Shown here piece by piece: positions 22,001 through 40,659 of a DNA stretch of 64,000 nucleotides. The stretch is from assembly GCA_021513715.1 (NCBI GenBank), contig CP084167.1:2880001-2944000 (forward strand), given 5' to 3'. How positions within the stretch are numbered: position 1 is the first letter of the stretch; every line of letters begins with the position of its first letter. The notes beneath the pieces are model-generated. The model searched no databases. It had not been told where the DNA came from and was given only the letters and a program-made list of their open reading frames with translations. Both the position numbers and the translations under genes were made by a program. Source of the DNA: Candidatus Heimdallarchaeum endolithica. Lineage in GTDB: Archaea; Asgardarchaeota; Heimdallarchaeia; Heimdallarchaeales; Heimdallarchaeaceae.

Positions 22001-25000
22001 ACTATCAAATAGCATAATATTAGAAAGTTGAACTCTTTTATCTCTCAATTTTCTAATTGTGTTAAGATTCAAAGTTGAGAGAACGCGATTAACTTTCTCA
22101 AGTTGTTTTTCTGTTAAGAATGAAGAATATGAAATTGGCTTAATTAGTAAATCTTTCAGTGTTTCGATTTTATGTTCATTTAGTTTTTCTATTTCTTTTT
22201 CTGTAAAATCTGTTACTATAGAGATGGAACTGTTGAGAAGATTTAAAATTTCTAACCCTTTTTTAGTAAGAGTCTGTTTGTTCATGTACAATACAGAAAT
22301 AAGATCGATTATATTTGAGATATCTGGAATTTCAATGTTTTTACTGAATAAGTCTTTTGAATTAATAGTACCAAGAAAATCTCCTGTTTTTAATGTAAGA
22401 GATAATGTTTTCTTTTTATCTTTAATCAGATTACTAATTATTGTGCTATAACCACCTAAGTTGATTAGTTTATCGTTTTTGATAAGATCCTTGACAGTGA
22501 AAAGATTGTTGTCAAAATATTTTGTTTCAATTTCTTCAAATTCTAAGGAATTAATAGCACCTAAAAATAGGATTGAAGTATCTAATATTTGTTTTATTTT
22601 TGTTTTTATTTTATTTATCTTTTTTATATCGTAAAGCCAGCTGTATATTGAATTCTCTTCTAAATCTGAAAAACTATAGAACCCATAAGAAGACAATATG
22701 TCCTTTTCTTTTTCACTAAGAAATGGCAAATCTACTAAATGATTGGGTTTATCATGTTCAATTGCATTTTTTATGTTTTCTATCTTAATTGATGAACGAA
22801 GTTTTAATATTTGATCAAGTTTAATCCTTGATTTGTGTGCAAGTGTTTTATATGGGATAAGAAGTAAATCTGCAATAGTATATATTCCACCTTTTTTAAG
22901 ATTAGTTTCTAATTTCTCTTCTAATCCTAAGTATCGAATATTAGCTAGTAAATAGGGACTAATTTCTGCAAATATGTTTTTATCTTTTAGGTTAATATCT
23001 CCAAGTAATTCTTGATAAGACAAGTATCCTAGTTTCATTATTTTTTCTTCATATGAAGTTAAAGGAGGGCTAAATTGTTCAAGTTGTAGATTCTTTAATG
23101 TTGATAGACTTGATAAAATTTCATCAACCATTTCATCTTTCAGATTTTGAATAGAGGAAATAACATCAATAATATGAATTATATTTTTGCTATAGCAATA
23201 TTCTATTGTAGAGAGTGTTAGTATAGGTAGATTATTTATATTTCTACATAATTTCATTCTAATGTTTCTAATTTCTTCAAGATATGAATCAGGCAAATTT
23301 GAGAAAAATTCTTCAGGGAAGTAATATAAGTATTCAATAGAGAAAACTCCTAAATTATATAATTTTTGAACTAATGATTTATTTAACTTCAAATTAGCTA
23401 TATCAAGAGTAGAGAATTGAAGAGAAGATAGGTTTCTAATGAAGAGAGAATTGTTCTCTTTTATCATCTTATTTAATTCTGGAAGATAGCTTTCCCACAA
23501 ATAAATTGGAATATGAAGATAGTCATAATAGGTGTTTTTATTTTTCAATGAAGATTCAACATTTATTATTGAAATGCCAAATATTCGTTCAATTGTTTTT
23601 ATTGGTGTAAAGAGAACAGGAAAATTGACTATCAGTTTTTCTTTTTCTTCTTTGCTTATTTCTATTTGATTAACGTCTTGATAAAATAGCTGAATCAAAG
23701 AGTAAATTTCATTTTCATTAAGATGTTTAATCGTAGAAATTTCTGGTTTTTCAATTGTTTTTAGACTAGTACCTTCCTTTGCCTCACGCTTTTTGATGAG
23801 TGGGAGTTTACCCTCTCCTGTGATCTCTTCTTCAGTTAAAGATGGTAAAAGGTTTAAGTCAATACCATAGATTTTAAGTTCTGAAATAATATCTTGTTTG
23901 TTTATTTGTGATTTAATAGTTTTTATTTCTTTAAACTCTATTCCAAACAATTGGCTTAAGGAAGCTGAAGGAATGGTTAAGAATTCAAGAATTGTGTTAA
24001 TTTTGTTGTTCAAAAGAATAGAATTTTGCTGTAATGAGAGAGAATTTAAGAAGGAAGTTGGAGTTGAACCAAACAAAGAGAGAGTCTTTTTTATTGTAGC
24101 TAGATTTTTATCTTCTAAGCTGTAATCTTGTAAACAAAGAAGTTGATCTAAATAATCAATTTTAATCTTTTTTAAAGCTAGCTTCTGTTCCTTCGTCAAA
24201 AACTTTACATCATGTAGTTTGATGGCCCATTTAGGTATTTGAAAATCAGATAAGGAACTTACTAAATATTCTGCCATTTCTGTATTAATCTTTTCTGGGG
24301 GAAGAAGTAATAAATCAAGAATGAGTTTTTTATTTTCTTTTATCAATTTTCTTAAGAACTCGAGTTGTTCTATTTGAGAAAATTTGTCCAACCAAATAAT
24401 TGGATATTTAACCTTGTTTGTGAGGGATTCAGAGTTATTAAAGAGGATTTGAGAACCAATAACAAATGGTTGAGGAAGTAAATCGAGTAAATTAATAACG
24501 TCGAGAGAGGTCTTAATATTTAGTTTATCATTCTTGTTTGATAGAATATCCAAATGGTCTTTAGGGATCAGATTAACCAATTTTTCTTTGGAAAACTCTT
24601 TTACAAAACGGATAATCTCTGTTCTAGCATTTGAAGGAATTGATCTTTTTTCTTCAGAACTGAGTGTAAGAAGTTCAATGATGTTTTTTACTTCGTTTTT
24701 CCACAAATCAAGCTTGACATCTAAAGATATTTCAGGTATAGAAAAAATGTTTAGGCTTAAACCATAGATAAATTCTTCAAGTTTAGCGATGCTACTTGCT
24801 TTTTCTATTTTTTCACTTTCAGAGAATATAAGAAGATATTCTGGTACCAACCCAAAGATATCTTCAAATGATGCCTTTGAAAGGTTAAACTTAAAGTTTG
24901 TGAGTGCACTCATTAACTCTTTATCTTCCTCAAGAATTGGAATGCCTGAACTAAGACTTATATTTCCTTTTCTTTTCTCCTTTAGTTCTTCAGGGATAAA

Positions 25001-28000
25001 ATTAAGGATACTCTTAAGATCTTTTTCTCTAACTGTGAAAAGATCAATAACTCGTAGAATGCGATTCTTTGCAAGAGTACGTTTAATAAATCGCGAAAGG
25101 TTTGAAATTCTGAAAATAGAGGAGTTACAAAGAGATAGAAAAACGTCGATATTTTCTTCAAATTCATCTGAAAATGATTTTATTTGATAGCTTAAACTAT
25201 AAAGATCTTGAACTGTTTCTTTATTTAGTTTTTGTAAAGTCATAAGATTTCTCTTTGATAGTAAGGTTAGAGATTCAAGTTTTACTCCTTTTTCTGCTAC
25301 TTCTTTCTGGATTTTTTTAACTGAAACATTTTCCTTTATTTTTATAATTTCTGCCTCTGGTATGTCTAAGATTAATGATATTGTGGTGATATCTTCTGTT
25401 AAGAAAGTAAGTATATCTCCAACTCCAGAATATACAAGCTTGAGCATTTGCTCTAGTTCTAAATCTAAGAAGAATACTGATGAGAGATACAATTTTGCTT
25501 CTTTGAATACATTCATATTCACTAAATAGGGATATGATTTTCTGATTTCAGACATTCTAGAAATGAAGTCTTGGATTGAATAAATCCCAAGTTCATGTAA
25601 CTTTTCAACATATTCATCTGTAATAGAGGGACAATTTTCTAAAGGAATAGCAAAACTAAGTCTTTTCTCTTTTAGTTCGTCTAATGAAAGCAAGTCAAAT
25701 ATGTGGAATTCATTATAAATTGGATTGTTTAGGATTTGAGACAATTGTCCTTTTTCAAAAAGAGACAAATCAATTACAGAGTGAATGTCGTGTAGTTCTA
25801 ACTTCTTTATTTCTTCAAAAGACAAGAAACTGAGGAAAGTTATTGAACCAGATAATAGCTCTTTGAATTCCTTATATTTTTCTTTTTTTAGAATACTGGA
25901 AGCTCCCATTCTTACTCCTGCATAGTATAAAGTTTCTATATCTGATATCCCTATTTCTTGTAACTTAGAAATTTCTGATTCAGTGATAAGAGATGAGGGC
26001 ATAATGGGGTGAGATCTAGTTCTATGTAATTCGACGATTTCACCGTAGGAAAGATTTTCCTTTATTTCATTAATTCTTTTTTGTGTTTCATTGGATATTT
26101 CAGAAAGTTTCTTGGTAGGGGTAGAATAAAAGTCTATTAATGTTGTAATTGAAGATCGACTGAGAGGGAGAGCGAGATTAGCATCAAGGTTTAGAGACGA
26201 AATAGGGATAGATAAATCGCCTATAAGTTTATCTAAACTATTTTCCTCTCTTAATTTGTTTTTTATTTCTAAAAGAGGAGAGCTCTCTTCAAATTCAAGT
26301 TCAAACAAGATACCTAAAGTTACAGTAGAGAAATCGTTCCTTGTTTCTTCATTCAAAAAGTTAAGAAAAGGGGTTATTCCAAGAGGAAGTTCAAAGACTG
26401 AACGAATAAGTGTAATATTACATTTTTCAAAAGCTAGTTGTCTTTCAAACTCACTGAGAGTTTTAATCAAATCCGTACTGGATATCACATCAAGTAGTGA
26501 TGACTCTTCTATGTCATCTAAAATAGAAGAAAAGAAGTCTTTATTGTATGCTGTTGCAGAAATAAAATCAAAGTAATGATAAGCTCTCATGTCAATTAAT
26601 TTGGATGAATAATCTGAAACTGTCCTAAACAATGTTCTGTCTGTTAAATCGTTATCTAATATGAAAATTAAATGGTAGAGATGTGAAATTTTGTTTTGAT
26701 TGAAAATAGTTAAAGAATAATCTGATATTTCCTGAAAAATTCGTAAAGGAAGTGATAATATCTTCTTTAGTGTGAAAACTTTTCGCCAGATAGATGATTT
26801 TCTATCAATGAAAACTTCATCAGGGCAGTAGAAAAGCTCTTGAATAGATTGAAATCCTTCATAACTATAAATTGTTTCTCTACTTAATGTTCTTTGTTCA
26901 TTTTTATCAAAAAGTTTAGTTTCATATGCATAGATTGCCCTTGTTTCATATTCTTCTCTTATTCTTTGAGAAGTTAAAATGTCTATTATTTCTTTAATTT
27001 CTTTTGTTGAAATGTTTAAGATGCTACTGAGTTTAACAGATGAAGTAGAAACAAAATCAACAATTGTTAATATATCAGCTTTTCTAAGTTCTTCTGTTTG
27101 TGAAAAAGAAAGTTTTGGTAAGAAATATACCGGTAAACTGAAAAAGTAGAATATTTCTCCAAGATCTAGACTCCTTTTAATATTGTCAAATCGTTCATCA
27201 GGAACTCCTGTTCTCTCCATTAAGACTTTGGATGATGTAAGTAGAAAACCTAGTAAGGTGTTTATTTTATTTTTCTTTAGAAGAGTAATTATATCTGGAT
27301 CTAACATATCTGACAAATGCTTAAAGCGTAGATTTAACACGTTTTTTAAGTTCTGTATTATTTCCCAAGGAATTGTGTTAATTGCCCATTTCTCTTGTTG
27401 AGTAGAAAAGTATAGGTCTTCAATGGTAAAAATATTGTTTGTTTCTAGAGTTTCTACTATAGAGGGTCTAAAGATGTCGAGTTCAGAAATGTCAGTACCT
27501 GTTTCACTAATTCGAATGTTTTTCTTGTATTTTTTAGCTTCTTCTAGATCAATTTTCAAGATTGAAGCAATTTTCTCATCACTAACAAGGAAAAAGTCTA
27601 TAATTCGTCTAATCCCAGTTTTTCTTAAAGCATTCAGCTGTTCATGAGATAAACTTGTTATTTCAACTTCGTCTACTTCTTTTTCTTGTTTCGTTTCCTC
27701 GTTTAATATTTTCTTCTTTACTGTTTTTTCCCAAGTGACAAGAGTCAAGGGAGAACGCAATAGCTTTTTGAATTTCTCAATTACTCCCCATTTTATAATA
27801 GTTGCACCAAAAGTATAAGGGTGTGTCAAGTAAAAGAGTTTGTCAATAGAATTGTATCCTATAACAAGTAAGGACAGTATTTCTTCTGGTGAAAAACGTT
27901 CTGAATTTTCGAAATCAAAAGAAATTGTAGATACATATTTTCCACTAGCTACTTTTTCATAAAATGGTTGTCCATCTCTATTTAAATCAAAATTGTTTAT

Positions 28001-31000
28001 TAGTTCATCAAAACTCTTCTTTGAAAAATTAAGGAGTGTTCTTAATTCATCAAAACTGTAATTAAAAAATTGATGTAAGGAGTATATTTTTTTTGATGCT
28101 AAAACCTCATAATCTTTAAGTTTCAAACCTTTTATACGAGTGATTGGGAGTTGCAAAAACTGATAGAAGTCAATTATTTCTTGAGATAGCAAAACTTTTT
28201 CAGAAAAATCATCTGAAACTTTAAGATTTTTACTATTTATGTTATCGTAGAATTCTAGTAAGACTTTCCTGTCTTTATTTTTAGAAATTTCTGTTTCAAT
28301 GAATGCAGGTGTTAGTTGAAGAAAATCTCTTATTGTATTTACATCCTTCGTTTTAAGCTTAAGAATTGCATCATTCAAAGATTTTGCTTTAGCTTTTGTT
28401 GGAGCTAATTTTGTTAAAAAGAGTATATCTTCATTCATGAATTCTTGAAAGTTATTCATTTTTGATAGAAACTCAGAGATAGGTGGGAGTTCTTCTTCAA
28501 TATAAAAGTAAAACAACTCTTGTATTGTTGTTTGTTGTTCATTGAATTGTTTGACCAATCTCGGGAAGTGCTTTTTTATAATTTTTAAATTTCCTTTGTA
28601 CAATTGTTTGTTTTTCTTAACCTTGTCAGCAGATATGCTTTGTTTTAAACGAATGATCTCTTCCTCGTTAAGGTTTAGTATTAGAGAGAGTTCTTTATTA
28701 CTCCATATAAGAAACCTCCCTATACAATTTACTCCTACCTCATTTAATACGTTAATTTTCTCATTTAATTCAGGAAAAGCAAAAATTAAAGGTGTTCGTA
28801 ATAATAAATAATCTGAAATGTATTGATTCTTAGTTTGTTCATCTTCAAATCCGAAATCTTCTGGGTTAGAGTATATTAAATCCTCTACTGTATATATTTC
28901 ATACTTGTTTGCTTTGCTTTTCAAAGATAGAAAATTGGGAATGGGTGTACCTATTTTTTTCTTTATTCTTGCAATCTCACTTTTTAATAACCCCATTTCG
29001 CGTAATCTTTTTGAAGGAGTAATCAAGAATGATGTAGAAGTAAATATTTTATTTTCCAATAATCTTTCTTCTGCCTTTTCATTAATTACTTTGAGGTGAG
29101 ATAAATCAAGATCTCTATTTGTTTCATTGAGATGAGTAAGTATGCGAAGTTTCGATTCTTCCAATAAACTATCCACAAAAATAGCTAATTCCTTTTTCAT
29201 TAAAGTTCTTAACTTTGCATTTGCATATTGGGCTAGAGTATCTATGTTCACAGACTTAAAAATGTCTAATATGCTCTTTTTTGTGCTATCATCTATAGTA
29301 GATATTAGTTTTAGTTTGCTTAGAGGAATTGATTTTTCAGTGTTAGCCAGAATAGTAAAGAATCTTGTGTAAATTGAACGCTCTAATTCTTTGATCTCTA
29401 GAAGGTCCTTAGTTGGTTTTTCAAGAAAATTTTTTATTGTCTCTATCTTTCGTCTATGGAAAGCATTTTTAGTATAACCGTCTATCCAGTCAGGTTTCAT
29501 TTTTGTTATATTAGTTTTTAGAAATTCAGGAAACTTCTGTGAAATATGCGAAAATACTTTCTTAATATAATCAATCAAGATTTCTGTTAAATCATTTTCA
29601 TATTTATAAGAAAAGGGCTCATTAAACTTGAAAATAAAATCTTCTAGTCCTCTAAACTTATTTGAAAAGTTGGGATAGGTTGTTTTTACATAGTTGAAGT
29701 CAGGATATAGAAATTCTTCTTTTAATTCTGAATAAGCAGACATGGTATCCAAATTGAACTTAAATTCTTGAATAAAACTTGATAAATCGACTGTTTCTTC
29801 TGAGTTTTGAGATTTCGTAATTTCACTAATTAACTTAAATTTGTTTCCCTCTATTAAACGCTCTACTAATCCTTCAACAAAACGTAATTGTGTAGCTTCT
29901 GTTGCTAAATAGTGATAACTATTTTGAATCCATCTTTGATATAAAGCTTCATTGAAACTACTACTTGTTCCTCTTGCAAACCTTTTATCAATTGTTTTGT
30001 TTGTTAATGCTTTCAGAGGAAGTTCAGGGCTCAACTTGGACCTGTCTAATTCATAAATTGTCCTTTGCTTTATTCTTGAAACTTCTTTTTTTGAAAGATT
30101 TAGAATTGTGGACAATTCTGAAATTGGTATAGAGAGAAACTTTCCTATTGTTAAAATATTATTTTTAGCACAATTGTTTTTATATTTGTCTGGACACCAC
30201 ACATTAAGTTCAAAAATCGGTGTTCCTAAAGGAACAAAATTCCTAATTTTCTTTTTTGCTCCATGGGCAAGAGCTGCTGCAACCTTATATTTCTCTTTAT
30301 TTATATTTGTATAAACTATTTTTTCATTCTCCAATATTCTAGCGAGATTATCGATTACAACAGGGGCTGATCTTACAAAACGAGATAATCTTGCATGTTC
30401 TCTTTTTCTTCTTTTTGCTCTACTTAGGAAAGTTTTTAGTCTTCTACCAAGTTGTTGCAAAGCTAATCTTATCTCTTCTTCAATCTCAGGAACAGTTGAA
30501 ATATACTCTTTACTAGTTTCAGGAAAAGGAATTTTTGTACTTACTATTGACACAGCAATAGCTAGCGGGTCTGATTGTCTTGTAAGTCCATATTCGCTCC
30601 AATTTAAAGAAGAAACTACTTTTGTAATAACATCATTTCCCGCACCAAAAATTAGAGGAATTCTATTTGCATATCTGTAAATTATTTTATTATCAACTGA
30701 TGTGCTTCCTTTTTGTTGGGCATATTTAGATACTCCACCTCCATAACCTATTGCAGCTTCTACAATAAAAGGGTGGCCAGAGTAAGCTTTTGGAGGACGA
30801 GAAATTGCTTCAACAAATTCTGGTTCAAGTTCTTTTTCTAAACCTTTTCTTAGTCTTGCTGCTCCTAAAGGAGAAAGAGCATCACCTTGTGGAGCGTCGA
30901 ATCTAAAGATCCTATCCCTCTTTCTTTTTATTTCTTTAGCTTCTTGGTATGCTTTAATGAATCCTTCATGAACTATTCTTCTAATTTCTTTTGAAGTAAG

Positions 31001-31945
31001 TTCGCTTGGTTTTTTGTTAGGATCAATTTCCAAAATTTGAAAGAATTCCTCAGCAACTTCCTTTCTCACTCCCATGAAGTCTTTTGATAAAAATTCGATT
31101 AGATCATTTGCAGAGGTTGCAGCTATTTTTGCTTTGAATTGAGTAATATCACAACCAAATGGGTGTAGTTGAATTACTTTTGGAGGATCTGGCATGTCAT
31201 CTACTACTTTTTGAAAAACTAGTTTTTCACTTGTTCCTTCTTCATCTCCAGGTAGTACTACAGTGAAACTAGCATAAGGGGTAATTATTGCTAATTGCTT
31301 AAAGTATTCTTTAATGCTGTTTTTTGCTAGATTCCAAGCTCCAGTGAAAGTTATACTTATCTCAGTTCCACTAGTATGTAAATATCCTTGGTCATCAGGA
31401 TAATATTCATGCTGCTCCATGATGACTGGTTCATTTTTTTCTAAATTAATCATTAAATGAACTTCATTTGTCATTTCTTCCATGAAGTATCTGCTTTTTA
31501 TTCTTGCAGGAAGATCAACTGAAGACATAGAGTGAATTAAACACATCTTGGCTCCTAAACCAAATCTTCCTCTAGTTTGAATCACTCCATATTTTGTCCC
31601 TGTTAATACTCGACCAAAAAGGTTCGGAATCTCGTGACCTGGAACACCTACACCATTATCTCTGCATGTTAACTGAAGAAAATCAAGATGTTTTTCTAAT
31701 TGTTTATATCTAGTAATATCTAATAATTCATTAATTTCAGAACTAGTTAGTTTTCTTAATTCAACATATATTTCTGGATTTACACCTAGTTTTTCAGCTG
31801 CATCTAAACCATTTTCAACTAACTCTCTAACTGATGTGAAAACAGCTCGCATTGAATTACCAAAACCTGCAATAGCCTTATTTTCATTAAAAAAAGCAGC
31901 TGCACTCATTTTTCGTGTTTTATTTTCTTCAGTCACAAAATTCAC
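19031..31945 (-). CDS. top6B: Giant DNA topoisomerase VI subunit B (GHKL + transducer + long HhH-like repeat array + basic tail), 4304 aa
   Basis: RELVENGLDA, DNGVG, TGTKY..QTRGRFGLG, RYANRIPL, PFPETSKE in aa 1-~545; uninterrupted frame; 10 bp upstream of top6A. Confidence 0.9.
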   Translation of the reverse strand: MNFVTEENKTRKMSAAAFFNENKAIAGFGNSMRAVFTSVRELVENGLDAAEKLGVNPEIYVELRKLTSSEINELLDITRYKQLEKHLDFLQLTCRDNGVGVPGHEIPNLFGRVLTGTKYGVIQTRGRFGLGAKMCLIHSMSSVDLPARIKSRYFMEEMTNEVHLMINLEKNEPVIMEQHEYYPDDQGYLHTSGTEISITFTGAWNLAKNSIKEYFKQLAIITPYASFTVVLPGDEEGTSEKLVFQKVVDDMPDPPKVIQLHPFGCDITQFKAKIAATSANDLIEFLSKDFMGVRKEVAEEFFQILEIDPNKKPSELTSKEIRRIVHEGFIKAYQEAKEIKRKRDRIFRFDAPQGDALSPLGAARLRKGLEKELEPEFVEAISRPPKAYSGHPFIVEAAIGYGGGVSKYAQQKGSTSVDNKIIYRYANRIPLIFGAGNDVITKVVSSLNWSEYGLTRQSDPLAIAVSIVSTKIPFPETSKEYISTVPEIEEEIRLALQQLGRRLKTFLSRAKRRKREHARLSRFVRSAPVVIDNLARILENEKIVYTNINKEKYKVAAALAHGAKKKIRNFVPLGTPIFELNVWCPDKYKNNCAKNNILTIGKFLSIPISELSTILNLSKKEVSRIKQRTIYELDRSKLSPELPLKALTNKTIDKRFARGTSSSFNEALYQRWIQNSYHYLATEATQLRFVEGLVERLIEGNKFKLISEITKSQNSEETVDLSSFIQEFKFNLDTMSAYSELKEEFLYPDFNYVKTTYPNFSNKFRGLEDFIFKFNEPFSYKYENDLTEILIDYIKKVFSHISQKFPEFLKTNITKMKPDWIDGYTKNAFHRRKIETIKNFLEKPTKDLLEIKELERSIYTRFFTILANTEKSIPLSKLKLISTIDDSTKKSILDIFKSVNIDTLAQYANAKLRTLMKKELAIFVDSLLEESKLRILTHLNETNRDLDLSHLKVINEKAEERLLENKIFTSTSFLITPSKRLREMGLLKSEIARIKKKIGTPIPNFLSLKSKANKYEIYTVEDLIYSNPEDFGFEDEQTKNQYISDYLLLRTPLIFAFPELNEKINVLNEVGVNCIGRFLIWSNKELSLILNLNEEEIIRLKQSISADKVKKNKQLYKGNLKIIKKHFPRLVKQFNEQQTTIQELFYFYIEEELPPISEFLSKMNNFQEFMNEDILFLTKLAPTKAKAKSLNDAILKLKTKDVNTIRDFLQLTPAFIETEISKNKDRKVLLEFYDNINSKNLKVSDDFSEKVLLSQEIIDFYQFLQLPITRIKGLKLKDYEVLASKKIYSLHQFFNYSFDELRTLLNFSKKSFDELINNFDLNRDGQPFYEKVASGKYVSTISFDFENSERFSPEEILSLLVIGYNSIDKLFYLTHPYTFGATIIKWGVIEKFKKLLRSPLTLVTWEKTVKKKILNEETKQEKEVDEVEITSLSHEQLNALRKTGIRRIIDFFLVSDEKIASILKIDLEEAKKYKKNIRISETGTDISELDIFRPSIVETLETNNIFTIEDLYFSTQQEKWAINTIPWEIIQNLKNVLNLRFKHLSDMLDPDIITLLKKNKINTLLGFLLTSSKVLMERTGVPDERFDNIKRSLDLGEIFYFFSLPVYFLPKLSFSQTEELRKADILTIVDFVSTSSVKLSSILNISTKEIKEIIDILTSQRIREEYETRAIYAYETKLFDKNEQRTLSRETIYSYEGFQSIQELFYCPDEVFIDRKSSIWRKVFTLKKILSLPLRIFQEISDYSLTIFNQNKISHLYHLIFILDNDLTDRTLFRTVSDYSSKLIDMRAYHYFDFISATAYNKDFFSSILDDIEESSLLDVISSTDLIKTLSEFERQLAFEKCNITLIRSVFELPLGITPFLNFLNEETRNDFSTVTLGILFELEFEESSPLLEIKNKLREENSLDKLIGDLSIPISSLNLDANLALPLSRSSITTLIDFYSTPTKKLSEISNETQKRINEIKENLSYGEIVELHRTRSHPIMPSSLITESEISKLQEIGISDIETLYYAGVRMGASSILKKEKYKEFKELLSGSITFLSFLSFEEIKKLELHDIHSVIDLSLFEKGQLSQILNNPIYNEFHIFDLLSLDELKEKRLSFAIPLENCPSITDEYVEKLHELGIYSIQDFISRMSEIRKSYPYLVNMNVFKEAKLYLSSVFFLDLELEQMLKLVYSGVGDILTFLTEDITTISLILDIPEAEIIKIKENVSVKKIQKEVAEKGVKLESLTLLSKRNLMTLQKLNKETVQDLYSLSYQIKSFSDEFEENIDVFLSLCNSSIFRISNLSRFIKRTLAKNRILRVIDLFTVREKDLKSILNFIPEELKEKRKGNISLSSGIPILEEDKELMSALTNFKFNLSKASFEDIFGLVPEYLLIFSESEKIEKASSIAKLEEFIYGLSLNIFSIPEISLDVKLDLWKNEVKNIIELLTLSSEEKRSIPSNARTEIIRFVKEFSKEKLVNLIPKDHLDILSNKNDKLNIKTSLDVINLLDLLPQPFVIGSQILFNNSESLTNKVKYPIIWLDKFSQIEQLEFLRKLIKENKKLILDLLLLPPEKINTEMAEYLVSSLSDFQIPKWAIKLHDVKFLTKEQKLALKKIKIDYLDQLLCLQDYSLEDKNLATIKKTLSLFGSTPTSFLNSLSLQQNSILLNNKINTILEFLTIPSASLSQLFGIEFKEIKTIKSQINKQDIISELKIYGIDLNLLPSLTEEEITGEGKLPLIKKREAKEGTSLKTIEKPEISTIKHLNENEIYSLIQLFYQDVNQIEISKEEKEKLIVNFPVLFTPIKTIERIFGISIINVESSLKNKNTYYDYLHIPIYLWESYLPELNKMIKENNSLFIRNLSSLQFSTLDIANLKLNKSLVQKLYNLGVFSIEYLYYFPEEFFSNLPDSYLEEIRNIRMKLCRNINNLPILTLSTIEYCYSKNIIHIIDVISSIQNLKDEMVDEILSSLSTLKNLQLEQFSPPLTSYEEKIMKLGYLSYQELLGDINLKDKNIFAEISPYLLANIRYLGLEEKLETNLKKGGIYTIADLLLIPYKTLAHKSRIKLDQILKLRSSIKIENIKNAIEHDKPNHLVDLPFLSEKEKDILSSYGFYSFSDLEENSIYSWLYDIKKINKIKTKIKQILDTSILFLGAINSLEFEEIETKYFDNNLFTVKDLIKNDKLINLGGYSTIISNLIKDKKKTLSLTLKTGDFLGTINSKDLFSKNIEIPDISNIIDLISVLYMNKQTLTKKGLEILNLLNSSISIVTDFTEKEIEKLNEHKIETLKDLLIKPISYSSFLTEKQLEKVNRVLSTLNLNTIRKLRDKRVQLSNIMLFDSETKKELLKYYTVVDDLIYDLSKKHSRLRSKLRNNVLKILNKSIYLISFPQLPLENWLKLLSKVSTIQEMLLLSKSDLAKIIDTKNSEVDTFLSKITISRISNPPALKTNIVLQDFDIAELRENSIKNYLDLFENTDVFSNLSPSLRTKIELLQKLSSRYFDEKLPNLSFQQLVFFNMHHDSLKVDSQVSKRLLDIYSFIFSKPTKLEEKLNLPEEDEQKIQHTLESLLLLEKYDKKKFDNITSSFPENITLHFNEYLQFLNRHIILLVGESFENKKKYKQYGNLTIGDLILKPKYQLNQIIDDNKLIRQIRNLSLETLRTLASKLTPIPETILDKTELDVLSQGHIFSIEEAYIFNLVSKSKTSKRWKITEKLRLRIEQKIYSLPLVFESKETFKLLLKNNIKTVYDLLLLNKSTDITVLKNFLSQIPFHNLDSLTAQSNSKLIEFVNDKEIINELNKNDINSLGELIALFEEKNISDLSMKVKDVLSCFRASLALFIRQKNILSQLSKRGYEQIYDLFFLQNIDDLHIKFTEKQHAEFTELLHSLNMTKVKEQLELNSYRIKDLGLFSDTEKSILENGGFSHIIHLSVSDKRIKEQTELTIKQISTLKELLSYPIYSFYALMQDKPNSIFKLYHKQKYSLWDVFNTRINELTEITNITERQLKNYFATLTPQSLKIAKKGKTQIVKNTPFMSSETILKLKEIGIYSFEELIFADNRVKKKDTFKNENVQKLQKLIEEPIEKLDVKQGIRNKLKSLGINTIGEFIVYPTSQLEGKLEMTYNDIKKIKQSIPFVKNKTSTTAKKTTTAKKTTTKKTTATAKKPSTTAKKTTATAKKPSTTAKKTTATAKKTTTKKTTTAKKTTATAKKPSTTAKKTTAAKKTTTAKKPSTTAKKKPSTTAKKTTTAKKTTTKKTTTAKKTTTKKTTATAKKTTTKKTTATAKKTTTKKTTATAKKPSTTAKKTTAKRTKQTTLDEITADKKIESKKRSTK
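19105..19612 (-). repeat. Coding tandem repeat giving a (T/A)2-4-KK / KKPSTTAKK low-complexity tail
   Basis: Shuffled units ttctttgctgttgttgt, gtacttggttttttt and gctgttgct over ~0.5 kb. Confidence 0.95.
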
Positions 31946-32083: not shown

Positions 32084-35014
32084 TTAATTTTCCTTACGGA
32101 ACAATTGTTGCTTAACTGGTTCTGCATTAATTGTTAGAGAAGATACAATTATACCTAGTGTTAGAATGAATAAGGCAGCAAAAGCTCCTCCGGTTCTATA
32201 AGAATCTGCTCTTCCTATTATTGAGAGGAAATCATTCTCGATATGTTTGGCAAGGTTTTCTGTAGAATAGAGCATATCTTCAAGCCAGAATAAGTTTGCC
32301 ATATCTGCAGTAAGTTTAGGATAAGTTTGATGCCATGTTCTATACTTATACTGAACATCTTCAGTGTTTTCTACTGCATCCTCATCTAAAAATGGATAAT
32401 ATTCTACGTATTGACCTGCATAGGTATTATATTGTACTCTATCTCTTCGTTCGAGAATTGTACCAGTTGTTGGGTCAGTGAAAATTTGTTGGAAGTGGAA
32501 TTCATCACGTATAGAACCAGGAAATGTGTGAGTAATATAAATATCATCATTCTTCCAATCTGTACCATAAATTTCGTTCCATCTTCCTACATGAACAAAA
32601 CTTTCATTTAGATAATCTGCATACTCTTGCCAATATAAGTCATATTGATCTACTTGTAGATAAGGTTGTTGTGTGTCTGCATAGTAAATGTATGCATCTC
32701 TTCCATACATGATTGTTTTATCTCTAGCAGAATCAAAGATAAAGGGACGGAAGAAGTATTCAACCCATCTTTGTGTAAATCCTCTTACTGTATTTGGAGG
32801 TAAAGCATTTAATGCATAAGTCTCACTGAATGGATCAAATTCCACTGTTTTCATTGGCCAATTATTTAATTGGACGAAAGAAGCTTTATCCCAAACTTCA
32901 ACAAATGTTCTTAATTCATCTCTATGTAGCACATCACTAAATGAACCTGAAGAGTAAGTTACATGTATTAAACCTTTAGAACCATCAGCTAAGTAAATGT
33001 TATTGCCAGAAGCGTAAACATCAAATGCTTCTCCATCGCTGTCGTAAGTTGCTAAACTGGATAAGGAATTGACGTTAGAAGCATCTACTACAATTAACCC
33101 ATTTTCTCCTGCAGTTAGGTATAATAAATCATTGTCTTCGTATATATTAAAGAAACCATCAGAAGTACCAAAGTCATATGTTTCAATTTGTGTTAAAGTG
33201 TTTCCACTAATTGAATAGACTACAAGTCCTAAAGTAGCATCAAGAACATATAATGTTGAACCATCCAACAGTAATTGTGTTGCTCCAGGAAGAGAGACGT
33301 TTACTAATGAATCTAATGTTGAAGCATCAAAAACTTCTATTCCTCGACCTTGTTCAACAGCATAAACTTTTGTTCCATCAGTATTAATTGCAATAACAGG
33401 CGAATCAGTTTCTTTAAGGGTATTCAAGGAAATATCTCCACCATTTGTTGTTAGTTTAGCTAATCCATATTGTCCCATAGCAACGAATAATGAGGATTTT
33501 GTAGGATTATATTCAAGATCTAAAGCGTTTACATTTCCTCCGTTAGTCCAAACATTAATTTGTTCTATCTCTGAAAGATCAGCTAAATTTAATGAAACTA
33601 ATCCTTTTTCACCAGCTGCTACATATCCAAAATCGCCATATAAACTAGTTTCAAAAGCAATATCCTTGAAAGAGTAACCTTGTAATCTGTATCCTCCAAT
33701 TCCTAAAAATAAGGGGCTGGAAGTATTTACTATTCTGAAACCTCTGTTTCCTTCGATCACATAAGCGAAATCTCCATTCATCTCAACCTTGTAACTTTGT
33801 GATTTTTCAAAGGTGGGGATATTGCCAATTGCAATTATTTCATCTACTCTTGTAATATTTTCTCTGCCTGTTTTTACAGCGTATAATAAGTCTGTAGAAG
33901 GATCAAAGGTTTCGAATGATTGATTAACCAAGAAAGGATATTTTCTTCCTCCAAGGAGAGGATCTTCAATCCCTGTAACCCACTCTGTTGCTGTTCTTTC
34001 GCAAATATAAGATATTTTTCTGTCGTATAACCAAGTTAATGCAGGAGTACCTGTAAGATATCTAATGTATGAAGCGAAAGATTGAGCTTGTTTTAGTTCT
34101 TCTGGTGTATCAATATCATAAATTTCTGCTAACTTTTGTGTAACGTTAACAGTGAGAATTGAGGAGTCATAGCTTAAACCTTGAACTAAATCAAGGAAGT
34201 ATTTCATAGACCCAGCTTCTCCAGTGAATAGAGAATAGTCATGACCATCTGCAGTTAATGCATTAAAGAGAATTTTGTAGGCTGTCTCACTATCAAAATT
34301 AAGATCTGTGTGATCAGGACGTGAATTAATCCACATGTGAGGGCTATACTTAATGCTGTAAATTAGGTCATTATCTTGTGCATAATCTTTATTTAGTACA
34401 ATTTTAGCAATTTCGCTGTTATTGTATCCTAATTCTTCTAATTCACTTCGAATCATAAAACTTGCAACATAAGCTTGTAAACCATACTCTGAACCATTAC
34501 CGAAATTCTTTACATAATATGGCCAGAGGTAGTTATAATTAACAATTTTCTCATTACCTGTTAATGTTGAAAGCGTTTTGTTTAAAGTGTATTGCTTCCG
34601 TTCAGTGTAAACAACATAATCATTTTCTTCACTATAATCAACTATAAATTTCTTCATTTCTAAGTCAAATACTAGTTTTCCTGGAATTCCTATGTAAGTA
34701 ACTGGCGTATTTTTGTACAGGTATGCATTTCTGTCACTTATGTTGTAAAATTCTATATAGGTATGAGCGTAATAATTACTATCATCAGAGTATTTACCAA
34801 CATACATCCAATCAGAGTAATTGTCGCTTCCTCCTTCGTAAGGATCAAGGTCGTCTTCTGTAATCATACCATAGTTACTTAGTTTCTCTTCTATTTGATT
34901 ATTGATTCTGATAGTTTGAATTGGTAACATTACGCCAACTGCGATAGCTGATCCAGAAGTTAAAATTAAAATAAATATTCCTAACATTATACGGAATTTT
35001 TTCTGCATAGTCAT
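32084..35014 (-). CDS. CD36/scavenger-receptor-class-B-like membrane protein with inserted LVIVD-type beta-propeller
   Basis: N- and C-terminal TM helices; CD36-like blocks GSDNYSDW, EFYNIS, RTATEWVTGIEDPLL, VKTGRENIT, DPTTGTILERRDRVQYN, FWLED; internal AYVxxGxxGLxxxD repeats. Confidence 0.72.
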   Translation of the reverse strand: MTMQKKFRIMLGIFILILTSGSAIAVGVMLPIQTIRINNQIEEKLSNYGMITEDDLDPYEGGSDNYSDWMYVGKYSDDSNYYAHTYIEFYNISDRNAYLYKNTPVTYIGIPGKLVFDLEMKKFIVDYSEENDYVVYTERKQYTLNKTLSTLTGNEKIVNYNYLWPYYVKNFGNGSEYGLQAYVASFMIRSELEELGYNNSEIAKIVLNKDYAQDNDLIYSIKYSPHMWINSRPDHTDLNFDSETAYKILFNALTADGHDYSLFTGEAGSMKYFLDLVQGLSYDSSILTVNVTQKLAEIYDIDTPEELKQAQSFASYIRYLTGTPALTWLYDRKISYICERTATEWVTGIEDPLLGGRKYPFLVNQSFETFDPSTDLLYAVKTGRENITRVDEIIAIGNIPTFEKSQSYKVEMNGDFAYVIEGNRGFRIVNTSSPLFLGIGGYRLQGYSFKDIAFETSLYGDFGYVAAGEKGLVSLNLADLSEIEQINVWTNGGNVNALDLEYNPTKSSLFVAMGQYGLAKLTTNGGDISLNTLKETDSPVIAINTDGTKVYAVEQGRGIEVFDASTLDSLVNVSLPGATQLLLDGSTLYVLDATLGLVVYSISGNTLTQIETYDFGTSDGFFNIYEDNDLLYLTAGENGLIVVDASNVNSLSSLATYDSDGEAFDVYASGNNIYLADGSKGLIHVTYSSGSFSDVLHRDELRTFVEVWDKASFVQLNNWPMKTVEFDPFSETYALNALPPNTVRGFTQRWVEYFFRPFIFDSARDKTIMYGRDAYIYYADTQQPYLQVDQYDLYWQEYADYLNESFVHVGRWNEIYGTDWKNDDIYITHTFPGSIRDEFHFQQIFTDPTTGTILERRDRVQYNTYAGQYVEYYPFLDEDAVENTEDVQYKYRTWHQTYPKLTADMANLFWLEDMLYSTENLAKHIENDFLSIIGRADSYRTGGAFAALFILTLGIIVSSLTINAEPVKQQLFRKEN

Positions 35015-35252
35015 TTTCCTCGCAACAATATCTGTTTATGCTTCCGTCTCTTATGTCTATTTAAATGTAATGACATATTCACTAGACATATTGGACTAGA
35101 GACATTATCAGTGCAACGGAGAAATAAACAATTATATATTTTGTGTATGTGTTTTTTTTTAAGGAATCATATATTTAAAAGAATTTACAATATAATATGC
35201 GAAAAAATTTAAATTTTTAAGAAAGAGAAAAGAAAGAGAAATTAAGCAAATA

Positions 35253-36518
35253 TTATTCTTCTTTTACTTCGTCTTCATTTTCTATTGTAACATTCTCTTC
35301 TATTAGATAATGTTCCTTCTCAAACAGAGTGTCATATGACGATAAAAAGGAGGTACTAACAAGTTCTCCATTAGAATCATACTCTTTTATAATTGCTTTG
35401 TTTAATATTTTGAATGAATCAAGAATTTCTTGGGGAATAGTAATGAAAGAAAATATTCCTCTAATGACTGTTCCCCTTCTTCTATTGCTATTTATAGCAA
35501 AAAAAACATCTTTATTTGAGTATTTTTGTCTAAAAATCTTGTAGTTTGATACAGATAAACCATCGTTAGTTGTTTGGATACAGATAAAACCTCTTAAAGG
35601 TGGTTTATCAATTGGAATGTTTGTTGCTAAATTCTCAACTTTTAATAGATTTGAAAAATCATTAATTTGTTCGTAGATGTCGTAGGAGACTAGAGAACAA
35701 AGACCTTTTGCATCTTGAAAAACATGTTGAAAATCTGATAAGTCGTAGGTATAAAAGTCATTCTTTGAGATAGAAGATATCATAATATCAACTATTACAT
35801 TCATTACTCTATCTCTAAGTTTTGTTTTCAATTCAAGATAACCACTAGACGGATTATTTTCAACTAATTTATTATGGTCTAATAAGATGAAAGGAATTAA
35901 GACATTTTCTAAATTTATCAAATAAGAAATAAAACCTAATAAAGAAATTTTCTCGCTTAAATTTTGCCCTTCTATTGGTTTTTCAAGGACAACTATTGGA
36001 GTTTTCCCTTTTTCTTTAATAATAGGTAGGAGTTCCATTAACATTCCTAATAGAAAACTATCATTTCCAGTGAAAATAAAAACAATTGAAGCATCTTCTA
36101 CAGTATTTACGATCTTCTGTGAAATACTAGATTGATTTTCATCAAACCACTTTTTACCCAAAAGAAAAGTAGAATTTATAATATCTCTGTTAGGTAAACG
36201 GATAAAATGATTCTTGTTTTCATATTTATTCAATGTTTCTTCATTAGCAAATAATAAGGAATTGCTTTTTTTTATTCTCTTAACAAGAAAAGAATAGAAT
36301 TCACAACCTTCTCCCAAAAACAAAAATGCATAATTTTTTAGTTTCTCTTCCCCTTCAAAAAATAGAGTATCAGATAGTTCAGAACCAAAAAAAGGATTTT
36401 CATCATTTTTGTTATCTACAATAATTCTTTGAAATTCAAATTTGTACAATGGGTTGAACTTTTGTTTTCTTGTCCCTAAACTTGATTTTTTTCTTTTGAA
36501 TATTTTTTTCAAACTCAT
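35253..36518 (-). CDS. Degenerate tubulin/FtsZ-fold protein lacking the GGGTGS loop
   Basis: FtsZ-like order of elements (FLFLGEG, GKKWFDEN..I, DASIVFIF, VVLEKP..EG, ILLDHNKL, YDLSDF..VF); colinear with 39520..40659. Confidence 0.6.
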   Translation of the reverse strand: MSLKKIFKRKKSSLGTRKQKFNPLYKFEFQRIIVDNKNDENPFFGSELSDTLFFEGEEKLKNYAFLFLGEGCEFYSFLVKRIKKSNSLLFANEETLNKYENKNHFIRLPNRDIINSTFLLGKKWFDENQSSISQKIVNTVEDASIVFIFTGNDSFLLGMLMELLPIIKEKGKTPIVVLEKPIEGQNLSEKISLLGFISYLINLENVLIPFILLDHNKLVENNPSSGYLELKTKLRDRVMNVIVDIMISSISKNDFYTYDLSDFQHVFQDAKGLCSLVSYDIYEQINDFSNLLKVENLATNIPIDKPPLRGFICIQTTNDGLSVSNYKIFRQKYSNKDVFFAINSNRRRGTVIRGIFSFITIPQEILDSFKILNKAIIKEYDSNGELVSTSFLSSYDTLFEKEHYLIEENVTIENEDEVKEE

Positions 36519-39519: not shown

Positions 39520-40659
39520 ATGTCGTTCTTAAAGAAACTTAGAAAAAAATCAATAGATATTGCAGTAATCGCTGTTGGTGATGCAGCCTGTACAATAGGA
39601 GCTAAATTTATTCAAAATTTAAAAGAAAATAAGATTAACGTGAAGTCTTTAGCAATAAATACAAAAAACAATTTTGAGTCCAAAATTTCTGACCCTTATA
39701 GTGACAAGTTTTGGTTTGCTGAACAATATTCTTCTACAAATCGTGATTTAGAATTGGCAAAAAAACTTTTTGAAGAAAGAAAAGAAGCTCTAACTGATAA
39801 ATTAAAAAATGTTGTTTTTTATCGCATAGATGACAAAAAACGAGAAGAAAAACTTGCTTTACATCTTATAATAGCTAGTGGAGGAGGAACTGGTTCAGCA
39901 GGTTCAATGATAGTAAGTAAAATAATTAAAGATATAACAGGTGAATCTCCGACAATAATCTTCATTGTTCCTGAAAAACATGAACCTTCAGTTGTTCAAT
40001 ATAATACAGCTACAGCTTTGTTCTATCTGGGATTTGATAGTCTAGGACCTAATTGTCCTACTATCCTATTTGATAATGAGAAACTAATCTCAGTTGATAA
40101 AACATTAAATATTAAGGATGCACTAGAATACTGTAATAACTATTTGGCTAATACACTCTCTACTACTATTTTAGCAGCTCTACAAGAATCTTCTCATGAA
40201 GAATTTAATGCGGGTTTAAATGATTTTTTCAAATCTTTTAGCTCTGAAGCAAAAGGAATAGGGGTCATTATTTCTGTAGATAAAACTTTTGAATCTTTAG
40301 AAAAAGCTCAAAATATTAGGTTTTCTGATATATTCTTTAAAGAATTAGAACTAACATCCAGTTTGACTGCGGATATCACAAAGGCAAGACTGGGTTTTCT
40401 ATCCATTATTGCTCCTCATTCCTATCAAACAACGTTTGAAACAAAAAAAATTGTAAAAAGATTTGAAAAAGGATCAATTAAGGTTTCATTAACATCATTA
40501 GAAGAGCCTATTCTTTTAATACGTGGAGTAATAACAGGGTTGCACCCTGATTTTATTGAGAGATTTTGGGATATTTTTGAACGTGCTAGGGATTCCAGAA
40601 AAGAGGTATTAATTCAAGAAGAGCAAATAAGAAACATGAAATTAGTTTTTTCCAACTAA
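39520..40659 (+). CDS. Divergent tubulin/FtsZ/CetZ-family GTPase
   Basis: AVGDAA, AINT, signature GGGTGSAG, VPxxxE, LFDNEKL, T7-like NAGLND. Confidence 0.85.
   Translation: MSFLKKLRKKSIDIAVIAVGDAACTIGAKFIQNLKENKINVKSLAINTKNNFESKISDPYSDKFWFAEQYSSTNRDLELAKKLFEERKEALTDKLKNVVFYRIDDKKREEKLALHLIIASGGGTGSAGSMIVSKIIKDITGESPTIIFIVPEKHEPSVVQYNTATALFYLGFDSLGPNCPTILFDNEKLISVDKTLNIKDALEYCNNYLANTLSTTILAALQESSHEEFNAGLNDFFKSFSSEAKGIGVIISVDKTFESLEKAQNIRFSDIFFKELELTSSLTADITKARLGFLSIIAPHSYQTTFETKKIVKRFEKGSIKVSLTSLEEPILLIRGVITGLHPDFIERFWDIFERARDSRKEVLIQEEQIRNMKLVFSN

What the first reader, a model, noticed from the sequence alone, without database searches (positions are those of the whole stretch)
32084..35014. 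CD36/SR-BI/LIMP-2-like scavenger receptor in an archaeon, with a beta-propeller insert
Seen: two terminal TM helices enclose a large ectodomain. Its blocks are colinear with the CD36 family consensus as I recall it: GSDNYSDW (GSxxYxxW), EFYNISD (FFNVTN), YVVYTERKQYTLNKTLS (VSYxxxxxYxFxxxxS), RTATEWVTGIEDPLL (RTVxELLWGYxDPLL), VKTGRENITRV (VxTGxxDIxxV), DPTTGTILERRDRVQYN (EPxTGxxLxxxxRLQxN), FWLED (xWxxE). About 300 aa of LVIVD-like repeats are inserted at ~32920-33800. Known: CD36-family proteins are eukaryotic lipid-uptake, phagocytosis and lysosomal receptors. Inference: a candidate eukaryotic signature protein for lipid scavenging or partner-cell recognition.
Basis: partly seen in the sequence, partly recalled or inferred. 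Interest (0 to 1): 0.85.

Follow-up and report, generated by a model that had tools for sequence, protein, structure and literature searches.

The report
Divergent CD36-type receptor with propeller
This Heimdall-group archaeon encodes a membrane protein that is a very diverged relative of the animal lipid receptors CD36/SR-BI/LIMP-2 with a whole beta-propeller spliced into it, and ordinary-looking CD36 genes turn out to sit unannotated in other Asgard archaea, a family the literature treats as eukaryote-only.

Summary
Window 32084-35014 (-) is one 976-aa ORF with only two hydrophobic helices (res 6-35, 939-965) and a seven-bladed LVIVD propeller at res 406-700.

Pfam CD36 scores 21.1 bits (E 1.3e-4), below its 26.5-bit cut-off. 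Profile-profile comparison settles homology:
- Three separate segments hit a eukaryotic CD36 profile in the right order.
- With the two inserts removed, one alignment spans 351 columns (Prob 95%, P 4e-8, score 70; shuffles 17.9±2.8).
- The unedited family alignment also gives three colinear hits to an Asgard CD36 profile (best P 8.6e-7).

The gene is single-copy in 29 of 30 genomes of its family and absent from the other 370 Asgard genomes searched. Canonical CD36 genes (115.5-238.4 bits in the six-frame genome search) occur in 28 of 400 Asgard genomes. The named copies of three looked up are "hypothetical protein".

A structural match of the CD36-like part could not be tested, because the propeller fills every fold-search list. 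Function is inferred: handling of hydrophobic ligands at the cell surface.

This scan has noted archaeal CD36 proteins before, on other DNA (Asgard, Poseidoniales). I found no paper on them.

Verdict: a new, propeller-bearing variant of a known kind.

The parts
32084..35014 (-). Whole CDS, 976 aa: divergent CD36-type hairpin membrane protein with two inserts
   Evidence: ORF list and translation. Full-length orthologues of 975-1044 aa occur in 29/30 genomes of the same family.
34910..34999 (-). N-terminal transmembrane helix (res 6-35), preceded by a short basic cytoplasmic tail
   Evidence: Hydropathy scan. It aligns with TM1 of canonical Asgard CD36 proteins.
34499..34909 (-). CD36-like segment N (res 36-172). 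Blocks: SDW, FYN[IV]SD (conserved sequon N91), G(K/E)LVFD, NxNY.
   Evidence: Pfam CD36 stretch 115-165 to profile 81-133. hhalign res 62-167 to mouse CD36 47-147, P 1.2e-4. AF2 pLDDT 65-92 over these blocks.
34010..34498 (-). Helical apex insert (res 173-335), at the position of the CD36 apex helices
   Evidence: AF2 helices with pLDDT 80-93 (already 63-88 with 7 sequences). It is the most conserved region of the family: mean major-residue frequency 0.75, and 34% of columns at 0.9 or more. No hhalign match to CD36 profiles (P 0.14 and 0.62).
33800..34009 (-). CD36-like segment M (res 336-405). Blocks: RTAxEWVxGIEDPLL, N-x-S/T (N364), KTGxxNITxV.
   Evidence: Six-frame Pfam stretch res 283-402 to profile 122-237. 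hhalign P 1.3e-3 against the eukaryotic profile and 7.9e-6 against the Asgard profile. Columns shown.
32915..33799 (-). Seven-bladed LVIVD beta-propeller insert (res 406-700)
32201..32914 (-). CD36-like segment C (res 701-938). Blocks: VEVWxK...NNW, FPG, EP(T/I)TGxxxxxxDRVQYN, LFWxED.
   Evidence: hhalign res 819-927 to mouse CD36 329-432, P 1.8e-5. Unedited A5 against the Asgard profile: 220 columns, P 8.6e-7. Res 720-802 are not modelled by AF2, pLDDT < 40.
32120..32200 (-). C-terminal transmembrane helix (res 939-965), followed by an 11-aa tail
   Evidence: Hydropathy scan. It aligns with TM2 of P0194.
35018..35065 (-). Possible own expression signals: TTTAAATA (35058-35065) and GAGG (35018-21) upstream of the ATG
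   Evidence: Read by eye in the 238-nt AT-rich gap. Not tested.

Best explanation
The gene encodes a cell-surface protein anchored by an N- and a C-terminal helix. Its ectodomain is a very diverged CD36/class-B-scavenger-receptor-type domain; I put the odds of homology at about 0.95.

The CD36-like chain is interrupted at two places:
- the membrane-distal apex is enlarged to a ~165-aa helical domain;
- a complete seven-bladed LVIVD beta-propeller is spliced into the stretch between the 'TGxxNIxxV' block and the 'W..G....W' block.

It is the only CD36-type gene of Heimdallarchaeaceae and is kept in nearly every genome of that family. It probably descends from the canonical CD36 gene still present in sister families.

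Most likely mechanism (inferred, about 0.5): as in CD36, SR-BI and LIMP-2, the apex captures a hydrophobic or amphipathic molecule (fatty acid, isoprenoid lipid, quinone or carotenoid). The barrel then passes it between the outside and the outer membrane leaflet. The fast-evolving propeller would act as a docking platform for the donor surface or an envelope partner.

Shown: topology, domain layout, homology, distribution. Inferred: fold of the C-terminal half, the tunnel, the ligand, the direction of transfer.
For: Topology: only two TM segments.

Sequence-to-profile: Pfam CD36 21.1 bits, E 1.3e-4, two colinear stretches. Four of 7 family members hit CD36, best E 3.5e-5.

Profile-to-profile against 25 eukaryotic CD36 proteins:
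- N segment P 1.2e-4, C segment P 1.8e-5.
- Inserts removed: Prob 95%, P 4e-8, 351 columns.
- Controls score 15-24 against 70, and only the native segment order works.

Profile-to-profile against 18 canonical Asgard CD36 proteins, with the family alignment unedited: three colinear hits, P 8.6e-7, 3.1e-4 and 6.1e-4.

Bridge: the family's C-terminal HMM finds P0194 (E 1.1e-5). P0194 scores 175 bits on PF01130 and E 1e-20 to LIMP-2 and CD36 chains.

Distribution: 29/30 genomes of the family carry the gene, and none of them has a canonical copy; 7/16 genomes of the sister families f2-f4 do.

Tree: a clade of this family with the canonical sequences of the same class (families f2-f4 and f6) is not rejected, p-AU 0.47.

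Other points:
- Conserved N-glycosylation sequons N91 (the FNVTN position), N173, N364 and N803 fit an extracellular domain.
- The apex is the most conserved part and the propeller the least.
- Family knowledge: the CD36 apex binds ligands and the barrel holds a lipid tunnel (PMC10715195). Distant actinobacterial relatives PgfA/LmcA traffic envelope lipids (PMC9678360).
Against: - Pfam's curated threshold is not reached.
- HMM searches of the PDB with the family profiles found no CD36 or LIMP-2 chain.
- A profile search of 1.84 billion representatives found no eukaryotic CD36.
- The GPYxY and SxPHF blocks of the family are not kept, and all ectodomain cysteines are absent.
- AF2 could not model res 720-802, and its good N-terminal model used canonical Asgard rows, so it is not independent.
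- No tunnel, ligand or expression datum exists.
- The neighbours (a 421-aa protein with no Pfam hit, pyruvate kinase, giant Topo VI-B) say nothing about lipids.
Confidence: 0.55

Rival explanations
1. Adhesin or recognition receptor. The CD36 scaffold no longer moves lipids. It only displays the helical apex and the propeller, which bind a protein or glycan on the S-layer, on partner cells or on particles.
For: The propeller evolves fastest, 28-30% identity against 45-54% for the other parts, as expected for a surface that tracks variable partners. LVIVD propellers are typical of secreted or surface proteins (Atlas clusters with sorting tails). Eukaryotic CD36 proteins also act as binding receptors through the apex (PMC10715195). 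The lost GPYxY and PHF blocks could mean a changed core.
Against: The barrel-forming blocks and both TM helices stay conserved over the whole family. No binding partner is encoded nearby.
Confidence: 0.25
2. Envelope-biogenesis factor working outward. Like actinobacterial PgfA/LmcA (DUF3068/PorA), it would hand lipids or lipid-linked glycans from the membrane to the cell envelope, with the propeller tied to the envelope.
For: Canonical Asgard CD36 proteins also match PF11271 PorA: P0194 scores 32.5 bits against a 29.5-bit cut-off, and others 17-22 bits. PgfA is needed for trehalose-monomycolate trafficking and shares 'limited homology to CD36' (PMC9678360). The gene is near-universal and single-copy in the family, like a housekeeping envelope gene.
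Against: P0001 itself has no PorA hit. There are no envelope or glycosylation genes in the conserved neighbourhood. Direction of transfer cannot be read from sequence.
Confidence: 0.15
3. Chance or convergent resemblance: an unrelated surface protein whose short motifs mimic CD36 blocks.
For: Sub-threshold Pfam score. No PDB sequence hits. No structural confirmation of the CD36-like part.
Against: Three independent segments match two independent CD36 profiles in the correct order. The combined score is about 18 SD above shuffles. Segment-order permutations break the alignment. Topology is identical and a bridging sequence exists.
Confidence: 0.03

Closest known systems
Eukaryotic class B scavenger receptors: CD36, SR-BI/SCARB1, LIMP-2/SCARB2, insect SNMP and Croquemort, Dictyostelium Lmp (Pfam PF01130; PDB 5LGD, 4F7B)
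   Same: Hairpin topology with two terminal TM helices. Colinear blocks along the whole ectodomain, including the FNVTN-type sequon, xGxxDPLL, TGxxNIxxV, EPxTGxxxxxxRxQxN and FWxE. A variable helical expansion at the apex position, as reported for many eukaryotic lineages (PMC10715195).
   Different: About 16% identity and below the Pfam cut-off. No cysteines or disulfides. GPYxY and PHF blocks changed. A 295-aa beta-propeller is inserted at a second, non-apex site; the survey of 418 eukaryotic sequences reports expansions only at the apex. Archaeal host.
Canonical Asgard CD36-family proteins (e.g. P0194, 607 aa; L029, 917 aa; up to 1367 aa), labelled 'hypothetical protein' where a public record names them
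   Same: Same phylum and, for P0194, L029, L039 and L040, the same order. Same topology, large apex inserts, no propeller-independent extras. The TM2-proximal region is directly alignable, 28% identity over 101 columns.
   Different: They score 175-329 bits on PF01130 as whole proteins and keep GPYVY, WxYxDPLL and KPHF. None has a propeller. They are not syntenic with the gene studied here. In the tree, the family studied here sits on a 1.8 substitutions-per-site branch.
Actinobacterial DUF3068/PorA proteins (PgfA / MSMEG_0317, LmcA)
   Same: Prokaryotic envelope proteins said to share limited homology with CD36 and to handle lipids (PMC9678360). Canonical Asgard CD36 proteins touch PF11271.
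   Different: No PF11271 signal in P0001. Different phylum and envelope. No propeller.
LVIVD-repeat beta-propeller proteins (PF08309)
   Same: The insert is a bona fide seven-bladed LVIVD propeller.
   Different: Here it is not a terminal module of a secreted protein. It is nested inside another domain.

Membership tests
CD36 / class B scavenger receptor family (PF01130) | Large ectodomain flanked by exactly two TM helices with short cytoplasmic tails (the operational SR-B definition, PMC10715195) | tested here: met
   Only res 6-35 and 939-965 are hydrophobic.
CD36 / class B scavenger receptor family (PF01130) | Pfam PF01130 score at or above the curated cut-off (26.5 bits) | tested here: not met
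   21.1 bits, E 1.3e-4. Best E among 7 family members is 3.5e-5. For this reason I file it as a divergent relative, not as a Pfam-rule member.
CD36 / class B scavenger receptor family (PF01130) | Significant colinear similarity over the whole CD36 domain | tested here: met
   hhalign P 4e-8 over 351 columns, with controls. Three colinear hits to the Asgard CD36 profile with the alignment unedited.
CD36 / class B scavenger receptor family (PF01130) | Signature blocks FNVTN, WGYxDPLL, TGxxNIxxV, EPxTGxxLxxxxRxQxN, PxxWxEE | tested here: met
   All five align in register across this family, Asgard and eukaryotic sequences.
CD36 / class B scavenger receptor family (PF01130) | Signature blocks GPYxY and SxPHF | tested here: not met
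   Replaced by G(K/E)LVF and THxFPG. Canonical Asgard members keep both.
CD36 / class B scavenger receptor family (PF01130) | Asymmetric beta-barrel with an internal hydrophobic tunnel | tested here: inconclusive
   The AF2 model is confident for the N half but not for res 720-802. Foldseek, VIA-align and Atlas lists are filled by propellers, so the CD36-like part was barely tested.
CD36 / class B scavenger receptor family (PF01130) | Ectodomain disulfide bridges (a metazoan trait rather than a family-wide one) | tested here: not met
   One Cys in the whole protein. The paper treats the bridges under 'conservation in Metazoa'.
LVIVD repeat beta-propeller (PF08309) | Pfam score above cut-off and a propeller fold | tested here: met
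Actinobacterial DUF3068/PorA (PF11271) | Pfam PF11271 match | tested here: not met
   No hit for P0001 at E <= 10. Only canonical Asgard relatives touch it.

The most novel reading that the evidence does not exclude
The eukaryotic SR-B/CD36 family, inferred to be present in LECA, descends from Asgard CD36-type proteins. These proteins, including the propeller-bearing form fixed in Heimdallarchaeaceae, take up or exchange lipids with bacterial partners at the cell surface. That would be a concrete molecular route for the archaeal-to-bacterial membrane lipid shift in eukaryogenesis.
Probability: 0.1. Interest if true: 0.9.

Novelty: new variant of a known kind. Interest (0 to 1): 0.7.

Why it matters
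CD36-type receptors are central to lipid uptake, phagocytosis and lysosome biology in eukaryotes. The one pan-eukaryotic survey I could read traces them to LECA and does not mention archaea (PMC10715195).

Two things follow from this work:
- **Archaeal home for the family.** Canonical CD36 genes are native to several Asgard lineages: 28/400 genomes, on contigs up to 504 kb. Where a public record names them, it says 'hypothetical protein'.
- **A remodelled form.** One whole family, Heimdallarchaeaceae, carries instead a strongly remodelled version with a nested beta-propeller, publicly named only 'LVIVD repeat-containing protein'.

This gives an archaeal starting point for the origin of a eukaryotic membrane-trafficking receptor. 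It also gives a testable candidate for how Asgard archaea handle lipids at their surface, and an unusual example of domain-in-domain insertion outside the known variable apex.

Tried and rejected
**Sequence searches that found nothing useful**
- phmmer and hmmsearch of P0001, A1, A2 and A3 against PDB sequences: no CD36 or LIMP-2 chain.
- Profile of the N part against 1.84 billion representatives: only family members, plus two weak hits that I did not examine further.
- ESM Atlas search by features with res 1-405: no usable hit.

**Structure**
- AF2 with 7 sequences: the CD36-like parts came out at pLDDT < 35.
- Foldseek PDB, VIA-align wide and Atlas with the second model: lists filled by propellers, so the CD36-like part was not really tested. 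The family is not excluded by its absence there.
- Merged MAFFT alignments A6 and A7, and several trial versions, misplaced CD36 segments into the propeller or the N part. I did not use them for folding.

**Homology of the inserts, and paralogues**
- hhalign of the helical insert and of the propeller against CD36 profiles: no match.
- Other propeller copies in this genome: none by single-sequence search; one other LVIVD ORF elsewhere.

**Positional orthology with canonical CD36 genes**
- Pyruvate kinase and Topo VI-B lie on contigs other than the canonical CD36 gene in 5 genomes.

**Expression and literature**
- Expression: no RNA holder listed.
- Literature: CD36/LIMP-2/scavenger receptor combined with Asgard/Lokiarchaeota/Heimdallarchae terms returned nothing relevant.

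**A note on method**
- Two typed baits of 77 and 79 aa, written from memory, served only to fish real CD36 sequences out of the database. The first proved 100% identical to human CD36.
Full report
**1. What is there.**
Window 32084-35014 (minus strand) is a single 976-aa ORF. A hydropathy scan finds only two hydrophobic segments, res 6-35 and 939-965. The tails are short and basic, there is one cysteine, and there are 11 N-x-S/T sequons. Five sequons are kept in at least 23 of 27 orthologues: N91, N173, N364, N430 and N803.

Pfam gives LVIVD (32 bits) and a sub-threshold CD36 hit: 21.1 bits, E 1.3e-4, against a cut-off of 26.5. The six-frame search of the genome shows that this hit is two colinear stretches. 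Res 115-165 map to profile positions 81-133, and res 283-402 map to 122-237. No other CD36-like locus exists in this genome.

The closest database relatives are 975-1044-aa proteins of Candidatus Heimdallarchaeaceae, annotated only as 'LVIVD repeat-containing protein'.

**2. Is it a CD36 relative?**
HMM-to-sequence searches were not enough. There were no CD36 or LIMP-2 chains in the PDB and no eukaryotic proteins among 1.84 billion representatives.

I therefore built a CD36 family alignment of 25 diverse eukaryotic proteins. I fetched them with two short typed baits; the first bait turned out identical to human CD36. Profile-profile comparison then gave the following.

| Query (this family) | Target profile | Result |
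|---|---|---|
| Res 62-167 | Mouse CD36 47-147 | P 1.2e-4 |
| Res 819-927 | Mouse CD36 329-432 | P 1.8e-5 |
| Middle segment (res 283-405) | Eukaryotic CD36 profile | P 1.3e-3, at the expected profile columns |
| Helical insert alone | Eukaryotic CD36 profile | P 0.14 (no match) |
| Propeller alone | Eukaryotic CD36 profile | P 0.16 (no match) |
| Both inserts cut out | Eukaryotic CD36 profile | One alignment, 351 columns, Prob 95%, P 4e-8, score 69.6 |

Controls: the reversed query or target scores 15.3. Sixty column shuffles score 17.9 +/- 2.8, maximum 23.7. Every non-native order of the three segments drops to 45.6-47.9, and the alignment then no longer spans all three segments.

**3. A bridge, and a wider picture.**
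I searched 400 Asgard genomes with the C-terminal profile of the family. It found the gene, single-copy and about 1000 aa, in 29 of 30 genomes of the same family (six genera). It found the gene in none of the other 370 genomes. The one exception was a weak hit (E 1.1e-5) in a sister family.

That hit, P0194 (607 aa), is an unmistakable CD36 protein: 175 bits on PF01130, and E about 1e-20 to LIMP-2 and CD36 chains. The juxtamembrane region and TM2 of the two align directly, 28% identity over 101 columns.

Searching the same 400 genomes with PF01130 found canonical members (115.5-238.4 bits in that six-frame search) in 28 genomes:
- three sister families of the same order;
- one further family of the class;
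- 20 of 135 genomes of a distant Asgard family.

These lie on contigs up to 504 kb. The ORFs are 607-1367 aa. They carry large inserts of no known family at the apex position and no propeller. I looked up five of them in the protein collection. Three had copies with a source name, 'hypothetical protein' in each case.

Against a profile of 18 of these Asgard proteins, the unedited alignment of the family studied here gives three colinear hits: P 8.6e-7 (220 columns), 3.1e-4 and 6.1e-4. This removes the worry that my cutting out of the inserts created the signal.

**4. Anatomy.**
AF2 with 7 sequences modelled only the helical insert and the propeller. I then used 28 orthologues plus cleanly aligned N- and C-terminal pieces of canonical Asgard proteins (A8, checked). 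The model reached pLDDT 77 and pTM 0.72.
- The N-terminal strands, the helical domain (res 173-335, pLDDT 80-93) and the propeller (85-96) are confident.
- Res 720-802 stayed unmodelled.
- Because canonical rows were in the alignment, this model illustrates the homology. It does not prove it.

The helical insert sits where the CD36 apex helices are. That is the place where many eukaryotic lineages have independent helical expansions and where ligands bind (PMC10715195).

The propeller sits elsewhere, between the 'TGxxNIxxV' block and the 'W..G....W' block. The eukaryotic survey reports expansions only at the apex.

Within the family the apex is the most conserved region and the propeller the least: 28-30% identity against 45-54%.

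**5. Origin.**
The tree used 400 conserved columns.
- The family sits on a very long branch, 1.8 substitutions per site.
- Eukaryotes form one group (support 97).
- Canonical Asgard sequences form another (support 89).
- Holding the family together with the canonical sequences of its own class (families f2-f4 and f6) costs 1.8 log-likelihood units, p-AU 0.47. Descent from the canonical gene of that lineage is therefore allowed but not shown.
- The distributions are complementary. There is no canonical copy in 30 genomes of the family, but one in 7 of 16 genomes of the sister families f2-f4. That fits replacement by rapid divergence.
- Positional orthology was not found.
- The eukaryotic sample is mostly metazoan, so I draw no conclusion on the root.

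**6. Context.**
The order [421-aa protein with no Pfam hit] - [this gene] - [giant Topo VI-B] is kept, in the same orientation, in all six other genomes of the family that I checked. They belong to three or more other genera. The gaps are 238 and 138 nt. A TATA-like box and a GAGG lie upstream of the ATG. Nothing nearby points to lipids. No RNA run could be listed.

**7. How it most likely works.**
By homology, the protein is a hairpin-anchored barrel that captures a hydrophobic or amphipathic ligand at a specialised helical apex. It would then pass the ligand to or from the outer leaflet. The propeller would be an added docking module.
- This follows from what is established for CD36, SR-BI and LIMP-2.
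- It is in line with lipid trafficking by the distant actinobacterial relatives PgfA/LmcA (PMC9678360).
- Rivals are a pure adhesin or receptor role and an outward, envelope-building role.

None of these can be separated by sequence alone.

**8. Novelty.**
I found no paper on archaeal CD36 proteins. This scan's own notes list 30 earlier findings of CD36-type proteins in archaea, Asgard and Poseidoniales. The general point is therefore not new to the scan, and I reached the Asgard part independently before that look-up.

New here:
- a family-wide, strongly diverged subfamily that annotation and Pfam miss;
- a beta-propeller nested at a non-apex site.

Noticed in passing
window 19031-31945 (-): A 4304-aa ORF directly downstream. 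It has a Topo VI-B ATPase plus transducer at the N-terminus, then about 3800 aa with RAD51D_N/HhH-like repeats. Open frames of 1359-4244 aa at the Topo VI-B locus also occur in five genomes of sister families and of a further family of the same class, and of 4156-4213 aa in five genomes of this family. Already noted by this scan.
   Followed up: partly
window 35253-36518 (-): A 421-aa protein with no Pfam hit, always immediately upstream of the CD36-like gene. It is only 30-35% identical across the genera of the family, yet its position and orientation are kept. Another reader called it a degenerate tubulin/FtsZ fold; I did not test that.
   Followed up: partly
window 39520-40659 (+): Tubulin/FtsZ-family GTPase domain just above the Pfam cut-off (33.6 vs 33 bits), preceded by a 436-aa gene with no convincing Pfam hit.
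   Followed up: no
L041 864-3311 and 3825-6527 (G264:C33); G274:C4: Canonical Asgard CD36 genes occur as tandem or nearby duplicates in some genomes of the distant family f20.
   Followed up: no
P0194 (L016:549-2372) and L029, L036, L039, L041: Canonical Asgard CD36 proteins also match Pfam PF11271 PorA/DUF3068. P0194 scores 32.5 bits, above the 29.5-bit cut-off. This links CD36 and the actinobacterial lipid-trafficking family at sequence level.
   Followed up: partly
L040 (G050:C45) and L030 (G078:C695): Canonical CD36 proteins of 1367 and 1168 aa carry apex inserts of roughly 870 and 700 aa with no Pfam family.
   Followed up: no
G000:C1:1451216-1451578 (-), outside the window: The only other LVIVD-repeat ORF of this genome (1082 aa open frame). 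It is not detectably similar to the inserted propeller by single-sequence search.
   Followed up: no
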